A DNA stretch of 64,000 nt from an uncultured archaeon (GCA_964653985.1 CAZZIC010000001.1:15489-79488); one strand, 5' to 3'; positions 6,585-23,097 are shown, counted from the first letter of the stretch. Numbers and translations are program-made. The notes: generated from the letters alone by a model not told the origin.

Positions 6585-6586
6585 AA

Positions 6587-7588: not shown

Positions 7589-8125
7589 CAAATCAAATCA
7601 ATACCTATCGTTCCCCAAGTATTATATAATAAATATAAAATTAGAGATATTTAAATTTGATATAAAAGTAAAAAAACAAGAATATAATTCAGAGAGATTT
7701 TATATATAAAACTAATCTTCTGGTTCGAGTTCTGGAGGTTCTGGTTCAGTTGGCTTTGGCTCTGGTGGTTTAAGTTGATTTCTAAACCTTTTTCATACTT
7801 TAAATTACTCTTTTTGAAATATTATTTCATTTACTTACAGTTAAAGTTAAAGAAATTTTTTACCAATGAGCAGTTGTTTATTTATTGATAAAACTCCTAA
7901 GAGCGATAGTAAATATTCAATGTTGATTATTTAGAATTATATACTTTAAACTTTGGTAATGAATACTTAGTTTAAAAGCAATTTACTCTAATTATTCACG
8001 GAGTAAATCTAATAAAACCTTATCTTAAATAAGAATCTATATGAATTACATCTGTTAGGTACAAAATTTAAATTCTCATAATACTAATATGATTATAGAT
8101 AAAAAATTCCATAAAGTAAATCAAA

Positions 8126-8998
8126 ATGTCGGAGGAAAAACAAGATCCCCCAAAAATTTTATTACCTAAACAGGGAGAAATAAGGGCACTGGAGGAACCT
8201 GAAAAATCTTTCTCGATTCAGGAAATATTTGAAAACATTACACCACATACACCTAAAATCAAACTAGTGAGTAATTTAGGCTCAAAAAAAATTTCCACAT
8301 TATTTAACATCTCAGCTTTGACAAAAAAAAAGAAATATGGCAGTAAAGAATCAATTAAACTGGGAGAAAATGACGAAGAATTAATTGATGCCACTTTATC
8401 ATTAACAGAAAATATAATCTTCTATCCTAAAATTGAATTCAGAGGAGAAGGGAAGTTAACAAAAGCTCAGAAGCAAAAAGGAATTGAGAAAAAAATTATT
8501 ATCAAATCAGTACATGGGGGGATTAGGAAATCGGTACCGGTCGATGGTGAAGGAAATTATGTTAAAAAGAAAAATATTGAATATTATAAAAGAGAAGATG
8601 AAGAGAGTAAACTTCCGGTTTACCCTTCAAACTTATATAGTGATAAAAATCCGAGGAAAATAACTATAAATGAAGTAGCGGAAATTGAGAGAATTTTAGA
8701 CACTAATATTCAATCTAGGTACATCTTGTTTCCTGTTGAAAGTCAGGATGATTCCGAATTTAAAAATCTGGTAAATAATATGGAAGCGGTAGGACCGCAT
8801 TTCTTAACATTCAAATTCAATTATCGAAAAGGGACAAACCAAAAGGATGCATTTCTTGTCTTAATTGAGGAAGACGGTAATGAATATATCTTGATGTGCG
8901 TTGGGTTACAAATGGATATTAAATGGGTTGGTTTGGAAGAGTTGCCCGAAGAGAATCTTTTTTTCTTCGAGAAGTTGGACCTAGATTTAAAAATCTAG
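8126..8998 (+). CDS. hypothetical protein (candidate Ku-like beta-barrel core, unverified)
   Basis: This 290-aa ORF is the first gene of the plus arm that ends in the DNA ligase. The segment KITINEVAEIERILDTNIQSRYILFPVES..EFKNLVNNMEAVGPHFLTFKFNYRKG...AFLVLIEEDGNEYILMCVGL loosely follows the bacterial Ku core pattern by eye only. The protein has an acidic-aromatic C-terminus. Confidence 0.55.
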   Translation: MSEEKQDPPKILLPKQGEIRALEEPEKSFSIQEIFENITPHTPKIKLVSNLGSKKISTLFNISALTKKKKYGSKESIKLGENDEELIDATLSLTENIIFYPKIEFRGEGKLTKAQKQKGIEKKIIIKSVHGGIRKSVPVDGEGNYVKKKNIEYYKREDEESKLPVYPSNLYSDKNPRKITINEVAEIERILDTNIQSRYILFPVESQDDSEFKNLVNNMEAVGPHFLTFKFNYRKGTNQKDAFLVLIEEDGNEYILMCVGLQMDIKWVGLEELPEENLFFFEKLDLDLKI

Positions 8999-9054
8999 TT
9001 ATTCTAAAAAGTTACGAGTTTATCTTAATATTGAATTAAAGAGAGTCGAAAAAG

Positions 9055-9804
9055 ATGAGTTTACAATTCGGCAATTATAACTTCGAGATTTTTATAACAG
9101 ACGAAGATCCCAGATTAAATACAAGAGTTAGAGCAATTCCCAGATTTAAACTTATAAAAAAAATAAAAAAAACTCTTGATGGAAAAGAAGTCCATAATAC
9201 AAAGAGAGCTATTGTACCGTATGATAATGAATTTATGGAAAGATTAAGATACGATGAAAATTTACTTCAAGAATTTTTAGAAAATGATAATGAAATTGAT
9301 TTAGAACTAACAGGAAAAAGAATTTCAAGAACATTTCGAATCTTATTAAACCAAGACAACGAATTATGCTATAACTTTACAGAATATCAAATTCAAAAAG
9401 ATCGACAAGGGAGAATTATTCCATGTGTAGAATGTGGGGAACTTTTTTGCAAACACCAAGTAAAGAAAAGAACAAAATCCAATATAAACGAGGATCAAAA
9501 ACCGGTTATATTCATCAAACCGATGATGCTAGATAAATTGGAAGCAATAAAAAGATGGTCATTTGGGCGAAGTTATCAACTCAGGCATGTTGATGGATTA
9601 ACATTTAAATTTTGCTATGAATTATCCCAAAAACTTCATAAATCAGGTAAAATGGTATTAATGGCACCCATAGAAGAGAATACGCCCCAGAAAATCGTTC
9701 TTAGAAACAATACAGCTCCATTTTATGCTTGGTTAGAGGGTCGAATAAATGGGGACAAATATGCTTTGATATTACATCGTGCTACTCTAAAAATTGTGGA
9801 TTGA
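9055..9804 (+). CDS. hypothetical protein (second candidate Ku-like protein, unverified)
   Basis: This 249-aa ORF starts 56 nt after the previous gene. The segment IFIKPMMLDKLEAIKRWSFGRSYQLRHVDGLTFKFCYELSQKLHKSGKMVLMAPIEENTPQKIVLR resembles the Ku stretch (..IDPIYF.+SYYL.P...G.+AY.LL..AL...GK.aia......+..LaaLR) by eye. An internal CxxC...C..H is also present. Confidence 0.55.
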   Translation: MSLQFGNYNFEIFITDEDPRLNTRVRAIPRFKLIKKIKKTLDGKEVHNTKRAIVPYDNEFMERLRYDENLLQEFLENDNEIDLELTGKRISRTFRILLNQDNELCYNFTEYQIQKDRQGRIIPCVECGELFCKHQVKKRTKSNINEDQKPVIFIKPMMLDKLEAIKRWSFGRSYQLRHVDGLTFKFCYELSQKLHKSGKMVLMAPIEENTPQKIVLRNNTAPFYAWLEGRINGDKYALILHRATLKIVD

Positions 9805-9855
9805 AATAGATTATAATCTTTAATGGAAAATTAAGCAAAAAAGATTAAAGAAAAA

Positions 9856-11784
9856 ATGAAAAAAATCATAACTTTAGCAGAAAGAAAATTTGGAAAGGAA
9901 TTTGGAAACTACTGGCTGGGTCCTACATTCAGTGCTAATAAAAGAATTCAACAAATTACGGATGATTACAAGCTTGCTTTCCTTAAAAAATTCTATTCTC
10001 TTCCTCCCTCTTTTATAAACCCTATTAACAAAGATAAAACGTATCGAAAACTACCCGATGATCTTATAGTATCAGTTAAACGAGATGGAAGTTATTTCAC
10101 CTATGTTTATGATATACATTCCGAACCAGTTTCAGTTTTTTGTAACTCGCCAAATGCCAGGATTTTATATAATCTCCCCGTGAATCGAGAACTGGAGCAA
10201 AGAATTCCAAAAATAAACGAAAATAAATTAGGTTCGTTGAAGGAGCTTTTAAATGAGATCATCGGTGAAAACATATTCAAGAACTTTAAGACTATTCACA
10301 AAATTGTTTTAGCAGGAGAGCTTTTTTCTAATGTTGAAAAAGAGAACGATAGACCACGAGTTTATGATTTAGTTAAGGTAATGTTTAATCCTGAAAGTTT
10401 AAAAGAATTAGAAGCGATTCATTTTGACATTTTTGATATTATTTCTATTAATGGTAATAGTCTGATAACACTTCCCTACAAAAAACGCCTCGATATTTGT
10501 AAACTTTTGTTTTCCATCAATGATGAAAATAAAGCTAATATAATTGAACATAAAACTAAGGTTAAATCTAAAGACACTTACAAATTATATGAGCGATGGG
10601 TTCAGAAAAAGCATCACGAAGGAATAGTGATTCATACTAAATATAATATGTCCTATAAAATAAAGCCAATATTCAATATTGATGCGGTGATTATTGGGTT
10701 TGTTGAATTACTGAAAGAAAGTCTTCTTGAAGGTGATGAGGGTGCTATTAGTTCGTTATTGTTAGCATTAATGCATGAAGATGGAAGTTTTCAAGAGTTA
10801 TGCCGTATGGGAGGAGGTCTTTCTTATGAACAAAGAGTTGAGTTATTTAACCTTCTAAAGCAAGATGTTGTAAAATCTAGTTTTAGAGCCTCAAAACAAG
10901 ATGGAAGGGCATTTAGATTTGTAATTCCGAAATATATTGTCCAAGTTGATTATATGGACTACATTATAGAAGATAGTAAGGGTAAATCCATTCAGAGAAT
11001 GAATTTGAAATTTGAGGATAACAAATGGATTCCCATAAAAAGCATACCTTTTGTTTCTCTTATATCTCCCCGCTATGGTGTAATGCGAAGTGAGATAGAT
11101 AAAGAAAAATATCCTTCTCTTGCATATGTAAATCCAAAAGAGGTTAGATATGAGGATGTTAAATGTAAGCAGATACTCGATTTAGTTCCGATTGACCTTA
11201 TTGGATCCCAAGAGGTTTTAGAAAATCTACCTAAATCTAAAATATTATTTAAAGTTGTATTTGAAGGTGAATGGACAGGTTATAAATCGGGAAGAAAAAT
11301 AATTCTCTGGCAAACAAATAAAAAGGATTTAAATCCTTCTTTTCCAAATTATATTGTTTACTATGGAAATTATAGTTATACTCGACGGAGTCCTTTAGAA
11401 CAAAGAATTTATCCATTCAACAGTTTAGATAAGGCAATTGATCATATAAACTGGGTTTTTAAAAGACCTGATAGTAATCAAAAAGGTTTAATCAACAAAA
11501 GTGGTAATGGTTTAAAGAGATCAATAAATACACCTCCATTTGAGCTATTAATCGATAAAGGACATAAAGAAAAAATTATTAGTGGATTAGATTTTCTTAT
11601 AAAAAAAATTTTATTCAATGAAGAGTTTAAAGTAGATTTGGATTTGGATGATTTGGATTTTGATTTTGAAGAATTAGAAATGGAGGAACAAGAGAATCAA
11701 GAAATAGATAATGAAGTAGAAAAAGATTTATTAGATAAAATGTTAGAAACTGATCTAGATGATATTGACTTCGAAGATCTTTAA
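9856..11784 (+). CDS. ATP-dependent DNA ligase (minimal nucleotidyltransferase + OB core) with ~220-aa C-terminal extension and acidic tail
   Basis: Motif I is SVKRDGSY (KxDG at nt 10078-10089), motif III VLAGELFS, motif IIIa FDIFDIISING followed by LPYKKRLDICKLLF, motif IV HHEGIVIHT and motif V SYKIKP...DAVIIGF. The OB domain starts at SSLLLALMHEDGSFQELCRMGGGLS, and a motif VI-like LISPRYGVMRSEIDKEK follows. Confidence 0.75.
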   Translation: MKKIITLAERKFGKEFGNYWLGPTFSANKRIQQITDDYKLAFLKKFYSLPPSFINPINKDKTYRKLPDDLIVSVKRDGSYFTYVYDIHSEPVSVFCNSPNARILYNLPVNRELEQRIPKINENKLGSLKELLNEIIGENIFKNFKTIHKIVLAGELFSNVEKENDRPRVYDLVKVMFNPESLKELEAIHFDIFDIISINGNSLITLPYKKRLDICKLLFSINDENKANIIEHKTKVKSKDTYKLYERWVQKKHHEGIVIHTKYNMSYKIKPIFNIDAVIIGFVELLKESLLEGDEGAISSLLLALMHEDGSFQELCRMGGGLSYEQRVELFNLLKQDVVKSSFRASKQDGRAFRFVIPKYIVQVDYMDYIIEDSKGKSIQRMNLKFEDNKWIPIKSIPFVSLISPRYGVMRSEIDKEKYPSLAYVNPKEVRYEDVKCKQILDLVPIDLIGSQEVLENLPKSKILFKVVFEGEWTGYKSGRKIILWQTNKKDLNPSFPNYIVYYGNYSYTRRSPLEQRIYPFNSLDKAIDHINWVFKRPDSNQKGLINKSGNGLKRSINTPPFELLIDKGHKEKIISGLDFLIKKILFNEEFKVDLDLDDLDFDFEELEMEEQENQEIDNEVEKDLLDKMLETDLDDIDFEDL

Positions 11785-14337
11785 TTAACTGATTCTTTCA
11801 AGGACTTCCATCAATAAAGAGGGAATTTCCATAATCTTCGTGATATATACAATCTCCCCTTTTGTTTTTTCTAAAATCCATTGGGCATATCTTTTCGAAT
11901 AAGATCTTGTATTAACACCTAATAGAAATTGAACACGTTGGTTAATATATTCTTCTAACTGACTTTTTATTTGACTTTCACTCTCGCTGAAGGCACAATC
12001 TGTTAAAAGAAAGCAGAGTTTCCTTTCTGTACGGGTTTTTTGAAGTTCTTTTGCTCCCCATTCTAAAGCTGCTTTAACTTGAGTCCCTCCCCGAGCCCTC
12101 AAATCAAGTAACTCATCTGCCACATCCTCAAGATCTCGTTGATCTCCGAATTCTTTGACTATGTGAGTATTAGACTCAAAAAAACAGATTGCTACTTCAT
12201 CAGCTTTTAAGGTACCTATTAAAACCATAACTGCTATGGAACATGCGGCAAGTTTCATCCCACTCATTGAACCCGAGATATCAAGTAAAAAACAAATTGA
12301 AACCCTTCCTTTTTCAGTTCTTTGTACTAATAAATCCTCAGATGTAATCATTTCAATTGATTTTCCTTGCATTAAAATATTCTCAATGGTGGCATCAATA
12401 TTTATTAAGTCCATATCATCTCCAAGAATAAATGGTCTCAATTGAGTAGTTGGAATTAAACCCTTTTCTCCACTACCTCTTTGATTAGAAATAATATTCA
12501 TAGCAATTTTGATTAGAGCATCCCTACATAAACCTTTAACAAAACCTTTTAGATGGCTGGGGACTTGGGTTCGGTGATAAAACCACTGGATGAGTAAATT
12601 TTCTCCTGGTCCTGCATTTAAGGATTCCGCTACCCTTTTCTGAGCCCTTTTCCCTTGCTTTCCAGCAGCCTGGAAGGTTTTTCCCATATCATGATGAGAA
12701 AGTGCTCCAAGTCCAGGATAATTATTTTTTTCAAGAGCAATATCTATTAATTCATTTATTTGAGGTCCAGTTAATTTAATCTTTTTCATAATTTTCGCAT
12801 ATCTTTCAAAATTACCAATGTTTTGCTGGTACATTGATTTTAAAAGTTTATAATTACCACCAAATATTTCAATGATAATATCCTCTTTGACACCAAGTTT
12901 TTTACCAATTTTTATAACTTCTCCTTGGTTTAGGGGGACCAAATTAGAAACTAAAGATCTGAGGGAATTTTTAAACTGATCCTTATCATGTGCTGATTCT
13001 AAACCTTTTATCCCCGATTTCAAGGCGTTTCCAACAAAGGTTCCTTGGCAAGATTCGAATTCACTTTGATCTGATAAATTCATTAATTCATTCGCTAAGT
13101 CTGTGAGATTATAACTTGCTTGTCCGTTATTATTAAGATAATCCATTATTTTTCTTTCAATAAGTTCATTAAGCATTTTTCGCCATTGTGGATGTTCCGC
13201 CTGGGCTTGAAAAAGCTCCGATAAAGAAGGAGATGGATTTTGTCTTGTCCATTCTTCAAATAGTTTATTCGTTAAATTGGAGTTAAACTTTTTATCCAAG
13301 GCTCTGGAAATGTCAAATGAAGAATCAGCATCTTTCTGAACGCTATTTGAAAATACTTTATTTTGATCAAATTGAGGGATATGATTTAAAACGTTAGAAA
13401 CCTCATTTAAATCAATAATGTTATCAATTCTATCAATTAAACCGTTCGCAAGAGTGTTGATTTGAGATTTTTCCATACCTACTTGATCGAGATAATTTAA
13501 TGAGCGTGCTGAGGCTCCAACCTCTTCTGAATTCATTACATTATTAAGAGAATTCTTGAAATCCATATCACCCATCAAATATTGAGCTGTAAGATTAATC
13601 CATGGCGTTTTTGCTTGATCTAATATATCTTCCCCCCAATTTAAGTTTGTTGCTGATTGAATATCTGAAGGAGATAAATTATTTATCTCCCGTAGGATTG
13701 TTTGATGACAGTCTTTTTTTAGATCGTTGATATCTTTTATCCCTTGTTCTAAAACATATTTATAATTATCTCTTTGCTCTATAATATCAACTAAACTTCG
13801 AAATGGTTCTTTATCTTGATTTGCTTGGTCATATAGATTATTAACAAAATCCATTAAACCGGAAAATTCTTCCATAGCTTTATCAATTAATTCTTCCGTA
13901 TCCAAATTACTGATATCTAGTTTAGAATCCATTAAATCTAAAAACTCTTCCATAAAATCAGTTTTTTTATCGCTTGTTGCTTCAATATCTTCTTTTTTTT
14001 GTCTCTTTCCAGCTTTATTTTTATCTTTCTTTTCAAAAATAATGTTGAATGCAATTTCTTGGGCAATTGATTGATCCTCTATAGGTGTAGTCAGTACAGC
14101 AGCATTAATAAAGTCGTCAGGAATGAGATTATGCTTACGGTAGTACATTGCAGTTATTAATTTAGGTATCGCTATTGCTTGGCGAGTACTAGGGATGTTT
14201 TTAAGTCTGCCTTTATTCCTTCGCATTTGATAAATAAATTCAATCGTAAATGAGATAGGATTCCACTCTAAGATTTTGTTATTTGCAAAATCTCCGATAT
14301 TACCTTTATCTATTCTTCTCATCCTGTTTTTACTCAT
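11785..14337 (-). CDS. large vWA-domain protein (CbbO/NorD/ViaA-like partner of the adjacent MoxR ATPase)
   Basis: The C-terminal vWA domain has a MIDAS motif DISGS (nt 12268-12282) inside VSICFLLDISGSMSG, followed by GGTQVKAAL and LLTDCAF. The ~650-aa helical N-region is of unknown family. The gene starts 23 nt after the MoxR gene. Confidence 0.75.
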   Translation of the reverse strand: MSKNRMRRIDKGNIGDFANNKILEWNPISFTIEFIYQMRRNKGRLKNIPSTRQAIAIPKLITAMYYRKHNLIPDDFINAAVLTTPIEDQSIAQEIAFNIIFEKKDKNKAGKRQKKEDIEATSDKKTDFMEEFLDLMDSKLDISNLDTEELIDKAMEEFSGLMDFVNNLYDQANQDKEPFRSLVDIIEQRDNYKYVLEQGIKDINDLKKDCHQTILREINNLSPSDIQSATNLNWGEDILDQAKTPWINLTAQYLMGDMDFKNSLNNVMNSEEVGASARSLNYLDQVGMEKSQINTLANGLIDRIDNIIDLNEVSNVLNHIPQFDQNKVFSNSVQKDADSSFDISRALDKKFNSNLTNKLFEEWTRQNPSPSLSELFQAQAEHPQWRKMLNELIERKIMDYLNNNGQASYNLTDLANELMNLSDQSEFESCQGTFVGNALKSGIKGLESAHDKDQFKNSLRSLVSNLVPLNQGEVIKIGKKLGVKEDIIIEIFGGNYKLLKSMYQQNIGNFERYAKIMKKIKLTGPQINELIDIALEKNNYPGLGALSHHDMGKTFQAAGKQGKRAQKRVAESLNAGPGENLLIQWFYHRTQVPSHLKGFVKGLCRDALIKIAMNIISNQRGSGEKGLIPTTQLRPFILGDDMDLINIDATIENILMQGKSIEMITSEDLLVQRTEKGRVSICFLLDISGSMSGMKLAACSIAVMVLIGTLKADEVAICFFESNTHIVKEFGDQRDLEDVADELLDLRARGGTQVKAALEWGAKELQKTRTERKLCFLLTDCAFSESESQIKSQLEEYINQRVQFLLGVNTRSYSKRYAQWILEKTKGEIVYITKIMEIPSLLMEVLERIS

Positions 14338-14360
14338 TCATCAATATTTAAGTATTCTAT

Positions 14361-15272
14361 TTAAGAAACTCCAACAACCTTTGTCAAAATGTGCTTAATA
14401 AACTTCTTAACATCTTTTCCGGGTCTAAGTTCTATTGAATCTTGCAAAATTAGTTTTGCAGATTCAGCGATTAATTTATTATCCACACTAGTATTGAGTC
14501 GATTTGCTCTTTCTGAAACAAATCTAGCAAGTCCTATACTTGTCCTCAAACTGGGTGGCCGTTCAACTTCAGGAGCGTCCCGGCATTGGATCATTAATTC
14601 GATGATCTTTTCTTGCGTTAATGCTGAAAGATTATATTCTGGACAATTTGAAACCATTATCTTCTGTTCTAATGACTTCGGGGGATAACTTAGATGGATC
14701 CAAACTTTTATTCTATCTTTTATAGCAGAGGGTAATCGTCTGGTTCCTTTCAATTCGGTAGGATTCATCGCCGCAATTACATAAAATTCATCTTTTGTCT
14801 TCAACCATGTCTTCAATTGAGGAATATACAAGCGACGCTCCTCCATAGCATCTAACATACTATTTAGAACATACTCATCTCCTCTATTCAATTCATTTGC
14901 TAAGAAGATACCTCCTTTGAGAGCAGCCAAAGAAAAAGGACCCGGGATATATGAGTCTGGTGAAAATCCGTATTTAAAGACCAATGTAGGATCGAATGAA
15001 CCGATCAGTGTGGAAGGCCGTATTAAATCAGAAAAAGTAACCCAATGAAACTCCCTTTCAAGATCGTATGCAAATTTACGACACAATGCTGTTTTACCAC
15101 ATCCCACGGGTCCAACTAAGCCAACAAATAAACCCGCATTATAAGCATCTAGCATTGCTTCATAAGCGTACTTATATTGACCTTCTAGAACTAAATTAAT
15201 ATCCTCGCGGATATCTTCTATTTTACTTTCTTGAATCAATTTTGAAAATTCTTTAACTTGTTGCTTGGACAT
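14361..15272 (-). CDS. MoxR/CbbQ/NorQ-family AAA+ ATPase
   Basis: Walker A is GPVGCGKT. The Walker B region IFLANELNRGDEYVLNSMLDAMEERR has Asn where MoxR proteins have Asp. Sensor 1 and the Arg finger read VIAAMNPTELKGTRRLPSAIKDRI. The 303-aa length is typical of this family. Confidence 0.8.
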   Translation of the reverse strand: MSKQQVKEFSKLIQESKIEDIREDINLVLEGQYKYAYEAMLDAYNAGLFVGLVGPVGCGKTALCRKFAYDLEREFHWVTFSDLIRPSTLIGSFDPTLVFKYGFSPDSYIPGPFSLAALKGGIFLANELNRGDEYVLNSMLDAMEERRLYIPQLKTWLKTKDEFYVIAAMNPTELKGTRRLPSAIKDRIKVWIHLSYPPKSLEQKIMVSNCPEYNLSALTQEKIIELMIQCRDAPEVERPPSLRTSIGLARFVSERANRLNTSVDNKLIAESAKLILQDSIELRPGKDVKKFIKHILTKVVGVS

Positions 15273-15323: not shown

Positions 15324-15851
15324 TCAATTTTCGAAAAATAATTCCGTTTCTGTAGGTTGAACAACTATTGGAACCTCATAATTTAATTTTTCAATCGCTT
15401 TTACAACTCTGTTGTATTCTTCTTCTTCTAAAACTGTTCTTCGGCCGAATTTTAACCTCTTCATAATGTAATCTCCAAAATATGTTTCCTTAAGATCTTT
15501 CACATAATACTTTTTGCCTTTCTTCTTTACTTGTGAATTTTTTAATTCTTTAATTCTCTTTAATAGAATTATTTTAGCGAGAGGTTTCCAAGATTTCTCT
15601 TGTTTTAAAGCTTCTAAATCAAAATCTCTATGATTTAATTTATCATCTTTTACCATTAAACTAATATTCTTTAAAAACGCAGTAAAATATTTTCTTTTAA
15701 AATTTTCAATGGAACTGGTATCTGTTATTTGATTTGTAAGCTTTGAAAATAGATCCTCAATGATTTTTTCATTCGTGTTTTCATAATATTTTTGAATCTG
15801 TTTTTTTAAGTTAACAGTAAATATATCACACTCATTGTTCTTATTTTCCAA
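15324..15851 (-). CDS. hypothetical protein (175 aa)
   Basis: The TTG start lies 6 nt after an AGGTGA (complement of 15858-15863). It sits 18 nt downstream of the Rad50-like gene and 51 nt upstream of the MoxR gene. I recognise no motif. The C-terminus is ...TETELFFEN. Confidence 0.5.
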   Translation of the reverse strand: MENKNNECDIFTVNLKKQIQKYYENTNEKIIEDLFSKLTNQITDTSSIENFKRKYFTAFLKNISLMVKDDKLNHRDFDLEALKQEKSWKPLAKIILLKRIKELKNSQVKKKGKKYYVKDLKETYFGDYIMKRLKFGRRTVLEEEEYNRVVKAIEKLNYEVPIVVQPTETELFFEN

Positions 15852-15869: not shown

Positions 15870-18389
15870 TTATTTTTTTAGTTCAATTTTATTATTACAG
15901 ACAATCTTGTCTACATCTTGATGAGTTATGAGTATTACTTGAGTATTTTCCGCCATTGATGAAATATTGGATAAGAGATTTTTTCTATTATTTATATCAA
16001 TGAATTCGGTTGGTTCATCAATTAAAAGAAAAGATGATACATTGATGAGTTCACTAAGTGAAAATTTATAAGAAAGTCCTAATAAAAGTTTATGACCTCC
16101 ACCCTCATATACCCATGCTGGATAATATGTATTAAGACTCATTCCTTTCGGAGTAACAGACAACGAATAATCATCGCTATCAATAAAAATTTTCTCAAAT
16201 TCTTCTTCCGAGGATAAAACCTTATGATAATCTAAAATTCTTTCTTCCAAAGCATTCGAAATATTGTCTCGAATTATTCCTTGGGTCTTTTTAAAAACGT
16301 TCTGAAAATATCTATATTTTTCTGCTAGCTTTTCTTTAAGGAGAAGTATTTGTATTTTTTTTTCATTAACTGCTATTTGCTTGTCTAATCTTTTTATTTT
16401 GTCTTTAATATCTTCCAAATCTTTTTTCAATTGAACTTTTTGCTCTTCCAAATGCTTTAAACTAGATGAAATTTCAGACATTTTCGAAATTATTAATTCA
16501 TTAAAATCCTCTTTCAATTTAGTTGCCGCCTTAAGAGATAAATCGCTTTTAAAGTTATCAATTTGATTTAAAACTACCTTTAAGGGCTTTATAACGCCGT
16601 CATCCTCTCCTAAAAGCTTAATGTATTTATCTAATTCCGTTTTAACAGTATTTAGTAAGATAATGAGATTCCTTTTACCTTCTGTAAGATTTTCTTCAGC
16701 ATCTTTTTTATCTTTTTGAATCTCTTTCATTTTTGAGTTTTGTTTCTCTACTTGCTTGACTGATGAGTTTAAATCATTTAATTCTTTCTCTTTTTTTCGA
16801 TGTTCTTCCCTTAAATCGTTTAAAGCTGTTTTTTTTTCTTGAAGAAGCTTTTCATATTTTTCAATTTTGGTAGTTACATGCTGAATTTGTTCATTTAAAT
16901 CTTTCTCAGAAAGATTATTGATTTTTTCCTCTAAGTCGTTTATTTGTTCAAATAGATTTTTCTTCTTTAAATATTCTTGATAACTCTGTTTTTCTTTTTC
17001 TCTCTGTTTTAATAACTTCTTAGATATATCATTAAGATTTTTTTCATTAGAATCTATATTAGAATCAAAATCCTTTAACTTTTTTTTACATTCCTTGATT
17101 TCTTCTGTTATCTTGGATGCATCGATCGGTGCTCCACAATATTCACATTCTTGATTATCTTTATTTGATTTTCTCCTCTCTAAAATACCGGAGATATTTC
17201 CCTTTTCCCGTTCAATAGTTCTAAAGAAGGTTTGTAATTCCTTCTGTGCTTTTTCTAGCTCATTTAAGTTTTCATTAGTTTTTAAATATTCATCTTTAAA
17301 GTGTTCTATTTTTTTCGCAAGATTCTCTTTCGTTTCAAAAGGTTCAAGAAGTGATTCCTTTTCTTTTAAAATATTCTTTTCTTGTTTCTTTAGAGCATCT
17401 AATTCAACTTTTTTATTTTTGTTTTCTTGAATTTTTTGTTGTAATTTTGAGATTTCTTTCTCTTCATTTTTGATTTTATCATTAGAATCTTCAATAATTT
17501 TATTCAAAGAATTAAAATTTTTCTTTAAATCGTCAACTGATCCGAATTTATTCTTTATTTCTTCGAGTTCTTTTTTTATCATCTCAGTTTTAATATTAGC
17601 TTCTTCAACTGTTTTTTGAATTTCTTCTAAAGAATTAACAGCATCACCGATTTGTTCTGAATATTTCTTGAATTCTTTTAATTGTTCTAATCGATCAGAT
17701 TCTTTTTTAATCTCATCTTTTATGGTGTTTTCTTTATCCTCTTTTTCTTTTAGCTTCTCTGTTTGCTCTTGTTTTTCTTTCTTTGCCTGCTTTATTATCG
17801 CTTCAAATGTATCAAGAACCTTCACCTCTTTTTCGAAATCTAATGCTCGACTCCCAAACATCTTTGCTAAGGCAGTAGCAGATGTTATCCCAAATACTAT
17901 GTCTAATTTTTTATCTCCCGTTAATATATTGGAGATTTCACCTTGGGAAAAATGGACTCCAGTTTCAAAAAATCTCTTTGACATTCCTAATATCTCTAAT
18001 AACTTTAAAGCTAAATCCTCTTCATGGTTCCCAAAATCAGAAGCTAAAATATATTTTTCTTCACTTTCTGAAACCAATTTTTTCAAAGTAAAGAATCCAG
18101 TTGCTGATCTCGTTTTTCCCTTTAATTTATGCATTCTTTGGAGTTTGTATTTAGATCCATCCTTTCCTTTAAAGATGAGCTCTACTCCAACAGAATTTTG
18201 TTTGAATTTGGCTAATTGAGCGATTTTCTTAAATCCTCCAACGCCCCCAAAAAGACAGTATTCAATGGCATAAAAAATTGTTGTTTTCCCCGCATTATTT
18301 CTTCCATAGATCAAATTAAACGTTGGGTCAAATTGTAAAAGAATATCTTCATGTCTCCTAAAATTTTTCAACCTAATTGATTCAATCAC
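15870..18389 (-). CDS. Rad50/SbcC-like SMC-family ATPase, paralogue 2 (CxxC zinc hook, degenerate signature motif)
   Basis: Walker A is GRNNAGKTT and the Q-loop is HFSQGE. A long coiled coil carries the central hook CEYC (nt 17136-17147). EGGGHK replaces the LSGGE signature. Walker B is FLLIDEPTEFID and the H-loop is ILITHQD. The longest ORF extends to a TTG at 18461. The GTG at 18389, 9 nt after GAGGAGG (complement of 18399-18405), gives the typical Rad50 N-terminus (V/M)IESIRLKNFRRH. Confidence 0.8.
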   Translation of the reverse strand: MIESIRLKNFRRHEDILLQFDPTFNLIYGRNNAGKTTIFYAIEYCLFGGVGGFKKIAQLAKFKQNSVGVELIFKGKDGSKYKLQRMHKLKGKTRSATGFFTLKKLVSESEEKYILASDFGNHEEDLALKLLEILGMSKRFFETGVHFSQGEISNILTGDKKLDIVFGITSATALAKMFGSRALDFEKEVKVLDTFEAIIKQAKKEKQEQTEKLKEKEDKENTIKDEIKKESDRLEQLKEFKKYSEQIGDAVNSLEEIQKTVEEANIKTEMIKKELEEIKNKFGSVDDLKKNFNSLNKIIEDSNDKIKNEEKEISKLQQKIQENKNKKVELDALKKQEKNILKEKESLLEPFETKENLAKKIEHFKDEYLKTNENLNELEKAQKELQTFFRTIEREKGNISGILERRKSNKDNQECEYCGAPIDASKITEEIKECKKKLKDFDSNIDSNEKNLNDISKKLLKQREKEKQSYQEYLKKKNLFEQINDLEEKINNLSEKDLNEQIQHVTTKIEKYEKLLQEKKTALNDLREEHRKKEKELNDLNSSVKQVEKQNSKMKEIQKDKKDAEENLTEGKRNLIILLNTVKTELDKYIKLLGEDDGVIKPLKVVLNQIDNFKSDLSLKAATKLKEDFNELIISKMSEISSSLKHLEEQKVQLKKDLEDIKDKIKRLDKQIAVNEKKIQILLLKEKLAEKYRYFQNVFKKTQGIIRDNISNALEERILDYHKVLSSEEEFEKIFIDSDDYSLSVTPKGMSLNTYYPAWVYEGGGHKLLLGLSYKFSLSELINVSSFLLIDEPTEFIDINNRKNLLSNISSMAENTQVILITHQDVDKIVCNNKIELKK

Positions 18390-18636
18390 TTTGTTTTTCC
18401 TCCTCTTTAGCTGGGAAATCACCCTCAATTTCTTTAATATCAGATTCAAACATTTCTTCAATTCTAGAAGCTAATTTTTCCCTCGCTTTTTTAGCCAATT
18501 TAAAAGTTTTGGTCAAATTTTCTTCATCATCAAATAAATAGTTTGTAAATTCAAAAAGGGAAACCAGGTTTTCTTTTTCATTTTCTTCTAATTCAAACTT
18601 CTCTAGAATATCTGAAATGCTAAATTTAAATTCCAT
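18382..18636 (-). CDS. small acidic protein (84 aa), unknown function
   Basis: This ATG-started ORF lies between the two Rad50-like genes. Its last 8 nt overlap the proposed GTG start of the downstream gene (GTGATTGA). Its composition is helical and acidic. Confidence 0.5.
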   Translation of the reverse strand: MEFKFSISDILEKFELEENEKENLVSLFEFTNYLFDDEENLTKTFKLAKKAREKLASRIEEMFESDIKEIEGDFPAKEEEKQSD

Positions 18637-18720: not shown

Positions 18721-21432
18721 TCATACATTAGTAAGATAACTTACCTGTGTGGATTCGTTATTATCTTTTGAAAGTTTAATAACATACTCGCTGTGACGCT
18801 TAAAGGAATCATCATGGGAAATGACAAAAAGTTGGTTGAATCCCTCTATATTATTTATATATTTGCTAAGATTATTTCTTGATGTCTCATCTAGGTTTGT
18901 TGTCGGTTCATCAAAAATTGCAAACTTTGCCGAAGTGAGTGTCTTTAAAATGGCTAATCTTACTGCTAATGCAGCTGCCATTTTTTCTCCTCCTGATAAT
19001 CTGATAAACTTCTTTTTGCTTTTTGCTTTTAAAATCTCAATTTCATAGTTTTGATCCCACTGTAATGAGGTATTTTGATCTCCTCTAATGTTACGATATA
19101 TTTTTGAAGCTTGTCTATTTACTTTCTGAATTAATTGTTGTCTCATTTTTGGTTTAAAATCTTTTAACCAATTCCGTATTTTACTTACAAATTTTTTTTC
19201 GGCTTCTAATTTTAGCTCAATTTCTTTAAATTCATCTAGTTTTTTCTCTTTTGATTCTAAATTCTCGAGTTCTTCATTAATTTCGTCTAATCTCTGCTGC
19301 AAATTACGCAAATTTTCTTCTAACTTAATTATATTCCGGTTTTTTTCATCGAATTCTTCTTGTAATTTTTTATGGGTGACTTCATTATATTTAGCAGATA
19401 ATTCTTTTAACTCCTCTAAGCTCTCAGAATACTGTTTTACCAAATTCTCTAATCTTTGCTTGGCTCTATTAACTTTTTCTTTTCTTTGTTTTAATTTTTC
19501 TGCTTCGTTTATATTTTTCTGATATTGGTTATATGCTTTTTCTAAATTATTTAATTTCTTTCTTATCGCCGATAATTTATCTGGAATATTTCCTAACTTA
19601 GCTATTTTGCTTTTTAGATTTTCCTTCTTAGATTCTACTTCTTCTACTTCTACCTTTAGTTCTTCTAACTGATTTTCTATATCCTTGAGATCTTCTACTT
19701 TTCTTTTATGAATAAGATAATCATCATGAAAAGGTTGTAATGCTTCTCGCTTTTCCATAAGCTTTTTTTTAGAGTTAATCAATTGAGATTTTTCTGTAAT
19801 TTTACTATTAATTTCATTTATTTCTTCTTTCATAGACTTATATTGTTTTTCAAACTCTTCTAATTTTATAGCATTCCGTTTTAGATGTTCTATTTCATCC
19901 TGAAAGTCCTCCTTTTTTTTTAATTTCTCACTGATTTCATTCAAATCCCTTCTCTTAGATTTTAACTCTTCATTCTTTAAGATAATATCTTGATTAAAAT
20001 AATCTATATCAAACTCGCCATCTAGCATATTTTTACATTGTTGATCCGTAAATGGACATAGTTTTTGTTCTACTTTATTTTGATGATTTTGAAAGAATGA
20101 TATATCATTTTTTATACTTGAAATTTCTAATGCTAATGTGTTTTTCTTTTGTTCAAGTGTTTTGATATTTTCCAGCTTCTCTTTTAATTTTGGTAAGTTT
20201 TCTACTTCTTTTTTTATAGTATTTATATTTTTTTTAAGGGATGATACTCGTTCTTTTTTTTTATTAAGTCTCGACTCTGCGGCTTTAATAACTGCGATTT
20301 GTTCATCCAATTTTTTGATCTTAGATTCTAATTTTAAAAATCCTTCATATTTTGGTTCAATTTCTTTTATAATTTTTGAGGAATTCTTTGCTTCATTTAA
20401 CTTTTCCTTCTTATTGGAATATTTATTTTTTATATTCTGATATTTTTGATTCATCTCATTAAGTTTTTCCTTTAATCTACTTAGTTCTTCGCTTTCTTTA
20501 ATTAATTCCTCTTTCATTTCAGAATTCTTGAGGTATTGTTGGTAGTCATCTTTTGTATCGTTCACAACTTCTTTAGCGTGGCTAGACTCTTTTAATTGCT
20601 GCTGAAACATCACTAGATTTTGTTCTTCATTCTTCTTTTTTACTTCTAATTGCCTATACGTAGATGTTATCTCATCTAACTTTCCTTTTGTTGATTTGAA
20701 GTCATCCAATTCATTTTTGATTTTCTGCTTTTCCCTTCTGAATTCGTTTAATTTTTTTGATTTATTATCAATCTCTTTGGAAACTTCCTTTTTGTACCTT
20801 ACCTTAGATTCTTTTTCTTTAGTTTCCCCAGTTAATTCACTGATTTGATTTTGGATAGTTACTAATTCATCTCTAAAACTCCTTTCAATTACACCTAAAT
20901 TATCCCAATATTCTTCATATGTGTCTAGCTGAAAGATCTCATCAAAATATTCCTTCCTCTCCTTAGGACTCCTTAAAAAGATGTTAATTATCATTCCTTG
21001 AGGAATCCCAATAGCAGTATTAAACAAGGTCTGGAGATCTATATTATTTTTTACTCCAAGTTGATGTTTTATCCAAGATCTAAATTTTGAAATAGTCTCA
21101 ATCTGGGGAGAAACTTCCTTTCCTTTCTCATCTTTTACCTCAATATCAGTTTTTCCGATTTTTCGCTTAATTGTGTAGATTTTATTATTTAATCCATTTA
21201 TCCATATTTTAATAGATCCATATTCGGGCTTATCATTTTCAACTGATCGAACATAATCTGAATGTTGAGTTTTTGATTTTAAGAAATCGAACAAAACATA
21301 CCCGATCATTTCCAAAACGGTTGATTTACCAGTTCCGTTGTTGCCATAAAGGACATTTAGCCCTTCATTAAACGTTATTGTAGTATCTTTATGTGTTTTA
21401 ACATTTTCGATTTGAATTTTTCTAATTAGCAT
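18721..21432 (-). CDS. Rad50/SbcC-family ATPase, paralogue 1 (canonical signature, atypical hook)
   Basis: Walker A is GNNGTGKST and the Q-loop is GIPQG. A ~600-aa coiled coil carries the central CPFTDQQC (nt 20035-20058). The signature is LSGGEK, Walker B is FAIFDEPTTNLD and the H-loop is VISHD. The longest ORF reaches 21477 through an ATG run that is the out-of-frame reading of the Mre11 Asp-codon run. The ATG at 21432 lies 8 nt after GAGGTGA and gives MLIRKIQIENVKTH. Confidence 0.85.
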   Translation of the reverse strand: MLIRKIQIENVKTHKDTTITFNEGLNVLYGNNGTGKSTVLEMIGYVLFDFLKSKTQHSDYVRSVENDKPEYGSIKIWINGLNNKIYTIKRKIGKTDIEVKDEKGKEVSPQIETISKFRSWIKHQLGVKNNIDLQTLFNTAIGIPQGMIINIFLRSPKERKEYFDEIFQLDTYEEYWDNLGVIERSFRDELVTIQNQISELTGETKEKESKVRYKKEVSKEIDNKSKKLNEFRREKQKIKNELDDFKSTKGKLDEITSTYRQLEVKKKNEEQNLVMFQQQLKESSHAKEVVNDTKDDYQQYLKNSEMKEELIKESEELSRLKEKLNEMNQKYQNIKNKYSNKKEKLNEAKNSSKIIKEIEPKYEGFLKLESKIKKLDEQIAVIKAAESRLNKKKERVSSLKKNINTIKKEVENLPKLKEKLENIKTLEQKKNTLALEISSIKNDISFFQNHQNKVEQKLCPFTDQQCKNMLDGEFDIDYFNQDIILKNEELKSKRRDLNEISEKLKKKEDFQDEIEHLKRNAIKLEEFEKQYKSMKEEINEINSKITEKSQLINSKKKLMEKREALQPFHDDYLIHKRKVEDLKDIENQLEELKVEVEEVESKKENLKSKIAKLGNIPDKLSAIRKKLNNLEKAYNQYQKNINEAEKLKQRKEKVNRAKQRLENLVKQYSESLEELKELSAKYNEVTHKKLQEEFDEKNRNIIKLEENLRNLQQRLDEINEELENLESKEKKLDEFKEIELKLEAEKKFVSKIRNWLKDFKPKMRQQLIQKVNRQASKIYRNIRGDQNTSLQWDQNYEIEILKAKSKKKFIRLSGGEKMAAALAVRLAILKTLTSAKFAIFDEPTTNLDETSRNNLSKYINNIEGFNQLFVISHDDSFKRHSEYVIKLSKDNNESTQVSYLTNV

Positions 21433-21440
21433 TTTATTTT

Positions 21441-21447
21441 TCACCTC
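21441..21447 (-). promoter_or_regulatory. Shine-Dalgarno-like site (GAGGTGA) that contains the Mre11 stop codon, 8 nt upstream of the Rad50 ATG
   Basis: The minus strand reads GAGGTGAaaaataaaATG. The TGA (21446-21448) is the Mre11 stop. Confidence 0.6.
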
Positions 21448-23041: not shown

Positions 23042-23097
23042 TTTTACGTTTAAACACTCTTATTATTATTATTATAATTTTTAATTGGATTTGTCAA

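What the first reader, a model, noticed from the sequence alone, without database searches (positions are those of the whole stretch)
8126..11784. Minimal ATP-dependent DNA ligase preceded by two unknown proteins that may be Ku-like: a possible end-joining module
The 642-aa protein has the full ligase motif set: I KRDG, III, IIIa, IV, V, an OB domain and a motif VI-like ISPRYGVMRSEIDKEK. It lacks the N-terminal DNA-binding domain of replicative archaeal ligases, so it resembles LigD/LigC-type repair ligases. It also carries a ~220-aa extension. The two upstream co-oriented genes (spacers 56 and 51 nt) have no obvious motifs. Each contains a stretch that by eye follows the bacterial Ku core. 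In the 249-aa protein this is FGRSYQLRHVDGLTFKFCYELSQKLHKSGKMVLMAPIEENTPQKIVLR, and in the 290-aa protein it is QSRYILFPVES..EFKNLVNNMEAVGPHFLTFKFNYRKG..AFLVLIEEDGNEYILMCVGL. Two different Ku-like subunits next to a ligase would recall the Ku70/Ku80 heterodimer. The Ku assignment is a low-confidence hypothesis.
Basis: inference. Interest (0 to 1): 0.7.

Follow-up and report, generated by a model that had tools for sequence, protein, structure and literature searches.

The report
Ligase operon with two Ku-like partners
An Asgard archaeon carries a DNA ligase gene preceded by two unannotated genes that probably fold like the DNA-end-binding protein Ku, and this three-gene unit also occurs in many uncultured bacteria, so it may be an unrecognised DNA end-joining system.

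Summary
Three co-oriented ORFs lie at 8126-8998 (pA, 290 aa), 9055-9804 (pB, 249 aa) and 9856-11784 (ligase, 642 aa).

The ligase call is solid. It matches the nucleotidyltransferase and OB-fold profiles. The KxDG lysine and motifs III, IIIa, IV and V are at least 90% conserved in 65 relatives. It has no N-terminal DNA-binding domain.

pA and pB match nothing in Pfam, NCBIfam, PADLOC or PHROGs. Profile comparisons with real Ku alignments are not significant. However, low-confidence AlphaFold models of both proteins return Ku as the top Foldseek hit (pB E=1.8e-4, probability 0.99-1.0; pA E=9e-3; pA against the viral library, rank 1 is a phage Ku).

pA-pB-ligase is a tight operon. It is complete in 58 of 62 loci with enough flanking sequence, from Asgard archaea and from diverse bacteria. 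It is absent from the phage, plasmid and viral-contig collections.

In Asgard genomes the operon lies next to Mre11, Rad50 and a DNA2/Upf1-like helicase. In the window and in gut and rumen bacterial loci it lies next to a MoxR ATPase plus a vWA protein.

My best reading is a divergent two-subunit Ku-like end binder with a dedicated ligase (confidence about 0.6). The Ku fold still needs a confident structure.

The parts
8126..8998 (+). pA, 290 aa: first putative Ku-like subunit. Compared with the ~200-aa bacterial versions, the archaeal form has an N-terminal extension of about 40 aa and a Lys-rich insertion of about 30 aa.
   Evidence: ORF. Homologues. No library family. Foldseek top hits are Ku (PDB 8v53_B, E=8.9e-3; BFVD rank 1 is 'Ku protein, Mycobacterium phage Dylan', E=0.12). 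The model is poor (pLDDT 46.6).
8933..8995 (+). Acidic C-terminal tail of pA, ending in a short acidic-hydrophobic peptide (consensus ...D-E-L-D-F-x-M-x in bacteria; LDLDLKI here).
   Evidence: Present in the archaeal and bacterial pA sequences of alignment A5 and in the further family members. A role in recruiting a partner is inferred, not tested.
9055..9804 (+). pB, 249 aa: second putative Ku-like subunit.
   Evidence: ORF. Homologues. No library family. Foldseek top hits are M. tuberculosis Ku 9i91 (E=1.8e-4, probability 0.99-1.0) and 8v53 (4.4e-4). A core of about 93 residues superposes on chains of human Ku entries at 3.0 A (6erf_D). Model pLDDT is 50.3.
9424..9456 (+). Cys124-x2-Cys127-x4-Cys132-x-His134 knuckle in pB, a putative zinc site at the tip of a basic beta-hairpin. 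It is an archaeal-specific 10-residue insertion.
   Evidence: Invariant in 19 archaeal pB sequences and absent from bacterial pB. hhalign places CxxCGE over the CEACGE of M. tuberculosis Ku, but that alignment is not significant.
9856..11784 (+). ATP-dependent DNA ligase, 642 aa: 73-aa N-terminal segment, nucleotidyltransferase domain (K74 adenylation site), OB domain (~296-420, motif VI-like R411), conserved C-terminal domain (~440-552) and acidic tail (553-642).
   Evidence: Pfam PF01068 and PF04679. PDB archaeal ligases at 8.7e-9. NCBIfam LigD ligase-domain model is the best hit but below cutoff. PHROG 114 covers residues 61-333. Motif conservation in 65 relatives.
11785..14337 (-). vWA-domain protein, 850 aa, convergent with the ligase; its end coordinate directly abuts the ligase's.
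   Evidence: PF13519 and PF00092 at residues 681-808. The same gene sits next to the triad in L104. A vWA-like DUF2201 protein follows or lies near the triad in 10 bacterial loci.
14361..15272 (-). MoxR-type AAA+ ATPase, 303 aa, partner of the vWA protein.
   Evidence: PF07728 at 9.5e-19 and PF07726 at 1e-14. Conserved in L104. An AAA_5 ATPase lies near the triad in 11 bacterial loci.
15324..15851 (-). 175-aa protein of unknown function between the MoxR ATPase and the second Rad50-like gene.
   Evidence: No Pfam or PADLOC match. A 179-aa gene holds the same position in L104.
15870..18461 (-). Second Rad50/SMC-like ABC ATPase, 863 aa.
   Evidence: PF13476 and PF02463. Best PADLOC cross-hit is LmuB at 1.9e-33. 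Conserved in L104.
18721..21477 (-). Rad50-like ATPase, 918 aa.
   Evidence: PDB archaeal Rad50 at 2.5e-24. Pfam. Also adjacent to the triad in L001/L002, L003 and L104.
21446..23041 (-). Mre11-like nuclease, 531 aa.
   Evidence: P. furiosus Mre11 at 1.2e-20. PF00149. Conserved next to the triad in L001 and L003.
23098..27573 (-). SF1B helicase, 1491 aa, DNA2/Upf1-like.
   Evidence: PF13086 and PF13087. Best PDB hit is the DNA2 helicase domain at 4.4e-10. An orthologue sits next to the triad in L001, L003 and L024. A related RNaseH-like plus SF1 helicase follows the ligase in 5 bacterial loci.

Best explanation
pA, pB and the ligase form one operon that encodes a self-contained DNA-break-sealing machine.

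Inferred: pA and pB are very divergent, distantly paralogous Ku-fold proteins that pair into a pseudo-symmetric ring. Basic beta-hairpins line the ring; in the archaeal pB one hairpin is capped by a Cys3-His zinc knuckle. The ring threads onto a double-strand end and holds it.

Shown by sequence: the ligase is a catalytically intact ATP-dependent DNA ligase without a replicative DNA-binding domain. It carries an extra conserved C-terminal domain.

Inferred: the ring recruits the ligase to the end, possibly through the conserved acidic-hydrophobic C-terminal peptide of pA, and the ligase seals the break.

Inferred from gene neighbourhood: in Asgard archaea the module works beside Mre11-Rad50 and a DNA2-like helicase, which clean or resect ends.

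Speculative: the neighbouring MoxR ATPase plus vWA protein may remodel or remove the ring once it is trapped on repaired DNA.
For: Ligase:
- Pfam nucleotidyltransferase and OB domains score above their cutoffs.
- Archaeal ligase structures match at 8.7e-9.
- The nearest NCBIfam model is the NHEJ (LigD) ligase domain.
- K74, D76, G77, E155, F190-D191, E254-G255, K267, K269 and R411 are at least 90% conserved in 65 relatives.

Ku fold:
- For pB, the five best Foldseek-PDB hits are bacterial Ku chains (E 1.8e-4 to 7.2e-3, probability 0.94-1.0), and all 50 listed hits are entries that contain Ku (Ku or DNA-PK/NHEJ complexes). A core of about 93 residues fits at 3.0 A.
- For pA, the first 23 hits are all chains of Ku-containing entries (best E=8.9e-3).
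- In a second, independent library the rank-1 hit for pA is again a phage Ku.
- hhalign, though not significant, aligns both proteins co-linearly with Ku in the register beta(RSYxLxP)-helix-beta-beta-beta. The predicted secondary structure shows that order of elements.
- pA and pB are weakly similar to each other (P=0.003; 1 of 60 decoys).

Operon:
- The triad is complete in 58 of 62 loci with room on both sides.
- The order is pA-pB-ligase in 72 of 77 loci.
- Median gaps are 12 and -4 nt.
- All three trees split cleanly into an archaeal and a bacterial clade, so the three genes travel together.

Context:
- Mre11, Rad50 and an SF1B helicase lie next to the triad in at least 4 distinct Asgard loci, in two different arrangements.
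- Other neighbours are also DNA-end enzymes: an RNaseH-like plus SF1 helicase, Cas4-like DUF2779 and a beta-CASP nuclease.
- AAA+ partners recur: MoxR plus vWA in the window, in L104 and in 10-11 bacterial loci, and an AAA domain fused to the ligase in L026.
Against: No sequence method links pA or pB to Ku:
- Pfam PF02735 is not hit even at E<=10, including by bacterial members.
- hhalign E-values are 0.035-0.4, and 5-7 of 60 shuffled decoys score as well.
- A Ku HMM scores family members no better than their reversed or shuffled sequences.
- Profile searches of PDB sequences find no Ku.

The structural evidence is weak:
- The two structure models are poor (pLDDT 46.6 and 50.3).
- Global TM-scores to Ku are only 0.16-0.30, with rmsd of 14-20 A.
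- The tool itself warns that low-confidence models can give meaningless matches.
- The many Ku entries in the PDB are not independent hits.

No polymerase or phosphoesterase partner typical of bacterial NHEJ was seen. The heterodimer, the ring and end binding are all untested.
Confidence: 0.6

Rival explanations
1. pA and pB are real, obligatory partners of the ligase but do not have the Ku fold. They would be a different kind of two-subunit nucleic-acid-binding or regulatory accessory (for example a clamp-like or other beta-rich scaffold), and the Foldseek hits to Ku would be artefacts of poor, extended models.
For: All sequence tests against Ku are negative. The models have pLDDT of about 50 and global TM-scores of 0.2-0.3. 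The pA profile has a stray weak hit to a phage head-closure beta-barrel protein (E=0.014).
Against: Three independent Foldseek searches all rank Ku first, rather than clamps or other abundant beta folds. For pB the probability is 0.99-1.0 and a 93-residue core fits at 3 A. The gene context, an end-joining-type ligase with Mre11 and Rad50, is what one would expect for Ku.
Confidence: 0.25
2. The triad is cargo of mobile elements or part of a conflict (defence or anti-restriction) system, not a housekeeping repair pathway. For example, it might reseal DNA cut by restriction enzymes, or process foreign DNA ends.
For: Some bacterial loci carry DUF932, a KaiC/RadA-like ATPase, Cas4-like DUF2779, BspA repeats and a TIR-STAND protein nearby. 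The distribution among bacteria is patchy. The SMC-like and helicase neighbours cross-hit LmuB and MkoA models in PADLOC.
Against: No pB relative was found in 50,697 phage records, 72,556 plasmids or 2.9 million viral contigs. The triad has no PADLOC or PHROG family except a generic ligase PHROG. The clean archaeal/bacterial split argues against recent shuttling. The LmuB and MkoA hits are generic SMC and SF1 similarities, and the best structural relatives are Rad50, Mre11 and DNA2.
Confidence: 0.08
3. The module repairs or processes RNA. The ligase would act on RNA and pA/pB would bind RNA ends.
For: Some family ligases also hit the RNA_ligase profile PF09414 (3.4e-6 in L083; listed for P0030, P0036 and P0040). 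Neighbours include Upf1-like helicases and an RNase J-like beta-CASP enzyme.
Against: The DNA-ligase OB domain and a motif VI-like element are present and conserved. The best profile matches are DNA ligases. The Mre11-Rad50 neighbours act on DNA.
Confidence: 0.07

Closest known systems
Bacterial Ku-LigD non-homologous end joining (M. tuberculosis Ku/LigD, B. subtilis YkoV/YkoU)
   Same: An operon pairs an end-binding factor with an ATP-dependent ligase that lacks a replicative DNA-binding domain. The ligase's best profile is the LigD ligase domain. Bacterial Ku structures are the top structural hits for both partners.
   Different: There are two different partner proteins rather than one homodimeric Ku. 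Neither matches the Ku profile. The ligase has no polymerase or phosphoesterase domain and scores far below the LigD cutoffs (53 against 228 bits). It carries an unrelated conserved C-terminal domain.
Eukaryotic Ku70/Ku80 with DNA ligase IV
   Same: The end binder has two distinct, distantly related subunits. Chains of human Ku70/80-containing entries are among the Foldseek hits. A vWA domain and an AAA+ ATPase are linked to the system, and the Mre11-Rad50 plus DNA2-like context recalls eukaryotic break processing.
   Different: The vWA domain is on a separate 850-aa protein, not fused to the Ku-like subunits. No SAP domain or Ku80 C-terminal domain is present, and neither XRCC4 nor DNA-PKcs was seen. 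Nothing shows a specific relationship to the eukaryotic rather than the bacterial Ku branch.
Sinorhizobium meliloti Ku3/Ku4 with LigD4, and tandem Ku genes on rhizobial plasmids
   Same: This is a precedent for two different Ku genes side by side serving one ligase (PMC6379672, abstract seen; bioRxiv 10.1101/2023.09.30.560322). I saw tandem 'Ku protein' genes on Agrobacterium and Rhizobium plasmids.
   Different: Those are ordinary Ku-family proteins that sequence searches recognise easily. pA and pB are not.
Archaeal NHEJ of Methanocella paludicola (separate Ku, Lig, Pol and PE genes)
   Same: It is an archaeal end-joining set with a stand-alone ligase (as described in bioRxiv 10.1101/2023.09.30.560322).
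   Different: That system uses a canonical bacterial-type Ku plus polymerase and phosphoesterase proteins. By BLAST, Asgard archaea were reported to lack a complete set. The triad here is a different, unannotated set of families.

Membership tests
ATP-dependent DNA ligase superfamily (PF01068 + PF04679) | Nucleotidyltransferase domain matches the family profile above threshold | tested here: met
   PF01068 at 1.6e-9, 38.2 bits against a cutoff of 26.2. PHROG 114 at 9.3e-10 covers residues 61-333.
ATP-dependent DNA ligase superfamily (PF01068 + PF04679) | OB-fold domain C-terminal to the nucleotidyltransferase domain | tested here: met
   PF04679 at 3.7e-8, 34.1 bits against a cutoff of 27.5, residues 296-370.
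ATP-dependent DNA ligase superfamily (PF01068 + PF04679) | Motif I KxDG lysine and motifs III, IIIa, IV and V conserved | tested here: met
   K74, D76, G77, E155, F190-D191, E254-G255, K267 and K269 are at least 90% conserved in 65 family members.
ATP-dependent DNA ligase superfamily (PF01068 + PF04679) | DNA nick or end sealing activity | not testable with these tools
   Needs a biochemical assay.
LigD (bacterial NHEJ ligase; TIGR02776/TIGR02779) | Score above the curated equivalog cutoff | tested here: not met
   TIGR02779 scores 53.2 bits against a cutoff of 227.75, and TIGR02776 scores 42.8 against 373.2. Bacterial members score 61.6 and 72.2 bits on TIGR02779.
LigD (bacterial NHEJ ligase; TIGR02776/TIGR02779) | Fused or adjacent primase-polymerase and phosphoesterase domains | tested here: not met
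   No such Pfam domain appears in the ligase or its neighbours in the window or in the related loci inspected.
Ku (PF02735; Ku70/Ku80 beta-barrel) | Significant sequence or profile match to the Ku core | tested here: not met
   No PF02735 hit at E<=1 (window proteins) or E<=10 (bacterial members). hhalign against an 11-sequence Ku alignment gives E=0.035-0.4, and 5-7 of 60 decoys are equal or better. A Ku HMM gives no signal. PDB sequence-profile searches find no Ku.
Ku (PF02735; Ku70/Ku80 beta-barrel) | Ku-type beta-barrel with bridge (fold) | tested here: inconclusive
   Ku ranks first in Foldseek for pB (E=1.8e-4, probability 0.99-1.0; 93-residue core at 3.0 A) and for pA (E=8.9e-3 against PDB; rank 1 against BFVD). 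The models have pLDDT of 46.6 and 50.3 and global TM-scores of 0.16-0.30.
Ku (PF02735; Ku70/Ku80 beta-barrel) | Dimer forming a closed ring around DNA | not testable with these tools
   No complex prediction was available.
Ku (PF02735; Ku70/Ku80 beta-barrel) | Sequence-independent binding to double-strand DNA ends, and recruitment or stimulation of a ligase | not testable with these tools
   Needs EMSA and ligation assays.
Ku (PF02735; Ku70/Ku80 beta-barrel) | Gene linkage to an ATP-dependent DNA ligase | tested here: met
   The triad is complete in 58 of 62 loci with room, and median gaps are 12 and -4 nt.

The most novel reading that the evidence does not exclude
pA-pB-ligase may be an ancient end-joining system that homology searches have missed. 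Its end binder would be a two-subunit Ku-superfamily ring. In Asgard archaea it is physically linked to Mre11-Rad50, a DNA2-like helicase and a vWA/AAA+ pair. If so, the Asgard lineage already had a heterodimeric Ku with an associated vWA module, and this is a candidate relative or precursor of eukaryotic Ku70/Ku80, with the MoxR-vWA pair serving as a ring-removal device.
Probability: 0.15. Interest if true: 0.9.

Novelty: new variant of a known kind. Interest (0 to 1): 0.68.

Why it matters
A BLAST survey reported that Asgard archaea lack a complete prokaryotic-type end-joining set (bioRxiv 10.1101/2023.09.30.560322), and the origin of the two-subunit Ku of eukaryotes is, to my knowledge, unresolved.

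A conserved operon made of a dedicated ligase and two Ku-fold partners would have three consequences. It would give these archaea, and many uncultured gut, rumen, freshwater and marine bacteria, a break-joining pathway that annotation pipelines miss. It would define two new protein families absent from Pfam, NCBIfam, PADLOC and PHROGs. It would also provide a compact three-protein system that can be tested in vitro.

Even if the partners turn out not to have the Ku fold, a tightly coupled ligase with two obligate accessory proteins is a new ligase system worth characterising.

Tried and rejected
1. Sequence link to Ku. I built a Ku alignment from M. tuberculosis Ku, B. subtilis Ku, phage Corndog gp87 and eight plasmid Ku proteins. 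I compared it with shallow and deep pA and pB alignments, with decoy calibration. I also ran a Ku HMM against real, reversed and shuffled family members. Nothing was significant.

2. Profile searches of PDB sequences with pA and pB alignments. No Ku was found, only a stray phage head-closure hit at E=0.014.

3. Library searches (Pfam, NCBIfam, PADLOC, PHROGs) on window and bacterial members. pA and pB returned nothing credible. The weak ParB-like (0.0025) and Tpg (0.019) hits were judged to be chance.

4. The idea that the ligase C-terminal domain is a WGR domain. It looks similar by eye, but Pfam gave no support on ten isolated segments, so I dropped the claim.

5. The idea that longer pA forms carry a fused vWA domain, as Ku70/80 do. 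There was no Pfam support.

6. Phage or plasmid origin. There were no matches in the phage, plasmid or IMG/VR collections.

7. A scan of viral contigs with the Ku alignment failed because the alignment was too diverse.

8. Cluster look-up for organism names returned none.

9. This is why the models are weak.

Full report
**Observation**

All are on the + strand, with spacers of 56 and 51 nt, and all quoted peptides are present. The window has about 30% G+C. The closest named homologues come from Promethearchaeia (Asgard) metagenome-assembled genomes. A Ras-family GTPase lies just upstream.

**The ligase**

- Pfam finds the nucleotidyltransferase domain (PF01068, 1.6e-9) and the OB domain (PF04679, 3.7e-8), both above their gathering scores.
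- Solved archaeal ligases match at 8.7e-9 over residues 140-368.
- The PHROG ligase family aligns residues 61-333, which includes the KRDG lysine.
- In an alignment of 65 relatives, K74, D76, G77 (motif I), E155 (III), F190-D191 (IIIa), E254-G255 (IV), K267 and K269 (V) and R411 (motif VI region) are at least 90% conserved.
- Only 73 residues precede motif I, so the replicative-type DNA-binding domain is absent.
- The best NCBIfam model is the NHEJ (LigD) ligase domain. Its score is far below the equivalog cutoff (53 against 228 bits), and there is no polymerase or phosphoesterase domain. The enzyme is therefore LigD-like, not LigD.
- The C-terminal '220-aa extension' has two parts. A domain of about 110 residues (~440-552) is conserved in archaeal and bacterial members. 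An acidic tail (553-642) is archaeal only.
- By eye the conserved C-terminal domain recalls a WGR domain, but Pfam gives no support.

**The two upstream proteins**

Neither pA nor pB matches any Pfam, NCBIfam, PADLOC or PHROG family, and neither do their bacterial relatives.

Archaeal pB has an invariant Cys-x2-Cys-x4-Cys-x-His knuckle. This is a 10-residue insertion that bacterial pB lacks.

All pA proteins end in an acidic tail with a short acidic-hydrophobic terminal peptide. The archaeal ligase ends in a similar peptide.

**Is it Ku? Structural evidence**

AlphaFold2 models were built from the alignments I had at that time (5 and 19 sequences). They are poor, with mean pLDDT of 46.6 and 50.3 and pTM of 0.48 and 0.44. 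Even so, Foldseek against the PDB returns Ku almost exclusively.

- For pB, the top hits are M. tuberculosis Ku 9i91 (E=1.8e-4, probability 0.99-1.0) and 8v53 (4.4e-4). A core of about 93 residues superposes on chains of human Ku entries at 3.0 A.
- For pA, the first 23 hits are all chains of Ku-containing entries (best E=8.9e-3, probability 0.77).
- Against the viral library, the rank-1 hit for pA is again a mycobacteriophage Ku (E=0.12).
- Global TM-scores are low (0.16-0.30), as expected when a low-confidence model is compared with an extended protein. This part of the evidence is suggestive and not conclusive.

**Is it Ku? Sequence evidence**

I assembled real Ku sequences: Corndog gp87, M. 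tuberculosis and B. subtilis Ku taken from PDB alignments, and eight plasmid Ku proteins.

- hhalign of pB against Ku gives E=0.035 and of pA against Ku gives E=0.15.
- With deep alignments of 105 pB and 82 pA sequences the values are 0.22 and 0.078.
- Block-shuffled decoys reach those scores in 7 of 60 and 5 of 60 trials.
- A Ku HMM scores family members no better than reversed or shuffled sequences.
- Profile searches of PDB sequences find no Ku.

So sequence methods neither support nor exclude Ku.

The non-significant alignments are co-linear with the Ku core. The basic hairpin and the CxxCGE motif of pB fall over the corresponding Ku hairpin. The predicted secondary structure shows that order of elements.

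pA and pB are weakly similar to each other (P=0.003 over 89 co-linear columns; 1 of 60 decoys reaches the score). This would fit two paralogous subunits.

**Distribution and operon structure**

A scan of species-representative genomes found pB relatives (26-33% identity) in metagenome-assembled genomes labelled Lentisphaerae/Lentisphaeria, Bacteroidales, Cryptobacteroides, Alistipes, Propionicimonas, Propionibacteriaceae, Actinomycetes and Gracilibacteraceae. A metagenome scan found at least 515 relatives, from contigs whose names include human-gut, marine and Tara Oceans assemblies.

I annotated 94 loci with family HMMs:
- The full triad is present in 58 of 62 loci that have room on both sides.
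- The order is pA-pB-ligase in 72 loci and ligase-pA-pB in 5.
- Median gaps are 12 and -4 nt, which is typical of a translationally coupled operon.

Bacterial versions are shorter: pA about 200 aa, pB about 232 aa and the ligase about 450-480 aa.

Neighbour-joining trees of all three proteins each contain a clean archaeal/bacterial split, so the three genes have travelled together.

An exhaustive profile search with archaeal pA found only 26 cluster representatives among 1.84 billion. Some carry unannotated N-terminal extensions of 260-420 residues.

No relative was found in 50,697 phage records, 72,556 plasmids or 2.9 million viral contigs.

**Neighbourhood**

In the window, the ligase is convergent with a minus-strand gene string. 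In window order (left to right) the string is:
- a vWA protein (850 aa)
- a MoxR AAA+ ATPase (303 aa)
- a 175-aa protein of unknown function
- a Rad50/SMC-like protein (863 aa)
- a Rad50-like protein (918 aa; archaeal Rad50 at 2.5e-24)
- an Mre11-like protein (531 aa; P. furiosus Mre11 at 1.2e-20)
- an SF1B helicase (1491 aa; best PDB hit is the DNA2 helicase domain at 4.4e-10)

A genome whose ligase is 65% identical has the same layout, as far as the fetched locus extends. In more distant Asgard loci (43-45% identity), Rad50-Mre11-helicase lies divergently next to pA instead. The linkage therefore survives a rearrangement.

In bacteria the accessory genes vary, but most still relate to DNA ends or to AAA+ remodelling:
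- a MoxR-type AAA_5 ATPase plus a vWA-like DUF2201 protein near the triad in 10-11 loci, directly downstream in several
- an RNaseH-like plus SF1 helicase directly after the ligase in 5 loci
- Cas4-like DUF2779 in 10 loci
- a beta-CASP nuclease in one archaeal locus
- a ligase fused to a classic AAA domain in one locus

**Interpretation**

The most economical reading is an end-joining module. A two-subunit end-binding factor with a probable Ku fold would hand double-strand ends to a dedicated ligase. In Asgard archaea this would happen alongside Mre11-Rad50 and a DNA2-like helicase.

- Shown: the ligase is catalytically intact, the triad is an operon, it is broadly distributed, and it has this gene context.
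- Inferred: the Ku fold, the heterodimeric ring, end binding and ligase recruitment through the pA tail.
- Speculative: a role for MoxR-vWA in removing a ring trapped on repaired DNA.

I put the Ku-like end-joining reading at about 0.6. The rivals are a non-Ku accessory pair (about 0.25), a mobile-element or conflict module (about 0.08) and RNA repair (about 0.07).

**Novelty**

I found no paper describing this triad or a Ku in Asgard archaea. One survey states that Asgard lineages lack a complete prokaryotic NHEJ set by BLAST. Heteromeric bacterial Ku has a precedent in S. meliloti Ku3/Ku4, and I saw tandem Ku genes on rhizobial plasmids.

I therefore class the finding as a new variant of a known kind: Ku-plus-ligase end joining, built from families that current libraries do not recognise.

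**Main limitation**

Repeating the prediction with those alignments, and as a complex, is the single most decisive next step.

Noticed in passing
window 18721-27573 (- strand): Mre11-like, Rad50-like and a 1491-aa DNA2/Upf1-like SF1B helicase form one gene string. No HerA-NurA pair, which to my knowledge usually accompanies archaeal Mre11-Rad50, was seen in this string. The same trio occurs in other Asgard loci (L001, L003).
   Followed up: partly
window 15870-18461 and 18721-21477 (- strand): Two Rad50/SMC-like ATPase paralogues sit in tandem (863 and 918 aa). This is also the case in L104. Both cross-hit the Lamassu LmuB models in PADLOC (1.9e-33 and 1.9e-36), which is probably generic SMC similarity.
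   Followed up: partly
window 11785-15272 (- strand); L015 13135-15340; L054 9123-11376: A MoxR-type AAA+ ATPase plus a vWA or DUF2201 protein recurs beside the triad in the window, in L104 and in 10-11 bacterial loci. vWA MIDAS sites typically bind acidic ligand residues, and pA and the archaeal ligase both end in acidic peptides. The possible connection is untested.
   Followed up: partly
window 8933-8995 and 11512-11781: pA and the archaeal ligase both end in long acidic tails with a similar terminal acidic-hydrophobic peptide (LDLDLKI and DDIDFEDL). Bacterial pA ends in ...DELDFxM. This may be a shared docking motif.
   Followed up: no
window 11173-11511 (ligase residues ~440-552): A conserved domain of about 110 aa after the OB fold is found in all family ligases (pattern ...V.KF..WKTNKE..YPAYVF..TDYS..RK.PL......E......N.KKGW). 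By eye it recalls a WGR domain, but no Pfam match was found.
   Followed up: partly
L026 6672-9800: In one metagenomic locus the family ligase is fused to a C-terminal classic AAA+ ATPase domain (PF00004, 4.2e-40).
   Followed up: no
L106 11815-13287: In an archaeal locus, a 490-aa beta-CASP metallo-beta-lactamase-fold nuclease directly follows the ligase. It is RNase J-like, and to my knowledge it belongs to the same superfamily as Artemis/SNM1.
   Followed up: no
L105 7107-9206; P0057, P0060, P0065: Some archaeal pA homologues carry unannotated N-terminal extensions of 260-420 residues (total length 485-699 aa). They have no Pfam match.
   Followed up: partly
window 5862-7591 (- strand): A Ras/Roc/Arf-type small GTPase (334 aa, PF00071 at 1.1e-30) is followed by a 240-aa coiled-coil protein, just upstream of the triad. 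This is typical of Asgard genomes and probably unrelated to the triad.
   Followed up: no
L014 13670-19534 (- strand): In a Lentisphaerae locus, about 1.8 kb downstream of the triad, there is a 1954-aa protein whose sequence looks like a TIR domain followed by a STAND-type NTPase. This was judged by eye only.
   Followed up: no
L009 368-1448; L011 365-1448: Agrobacterium and Rhizobium plasmids carry two annotated 'Ku protein' genes in tandem. This is a bacterial precedent for paired Ku subunits.
   Followed up: no
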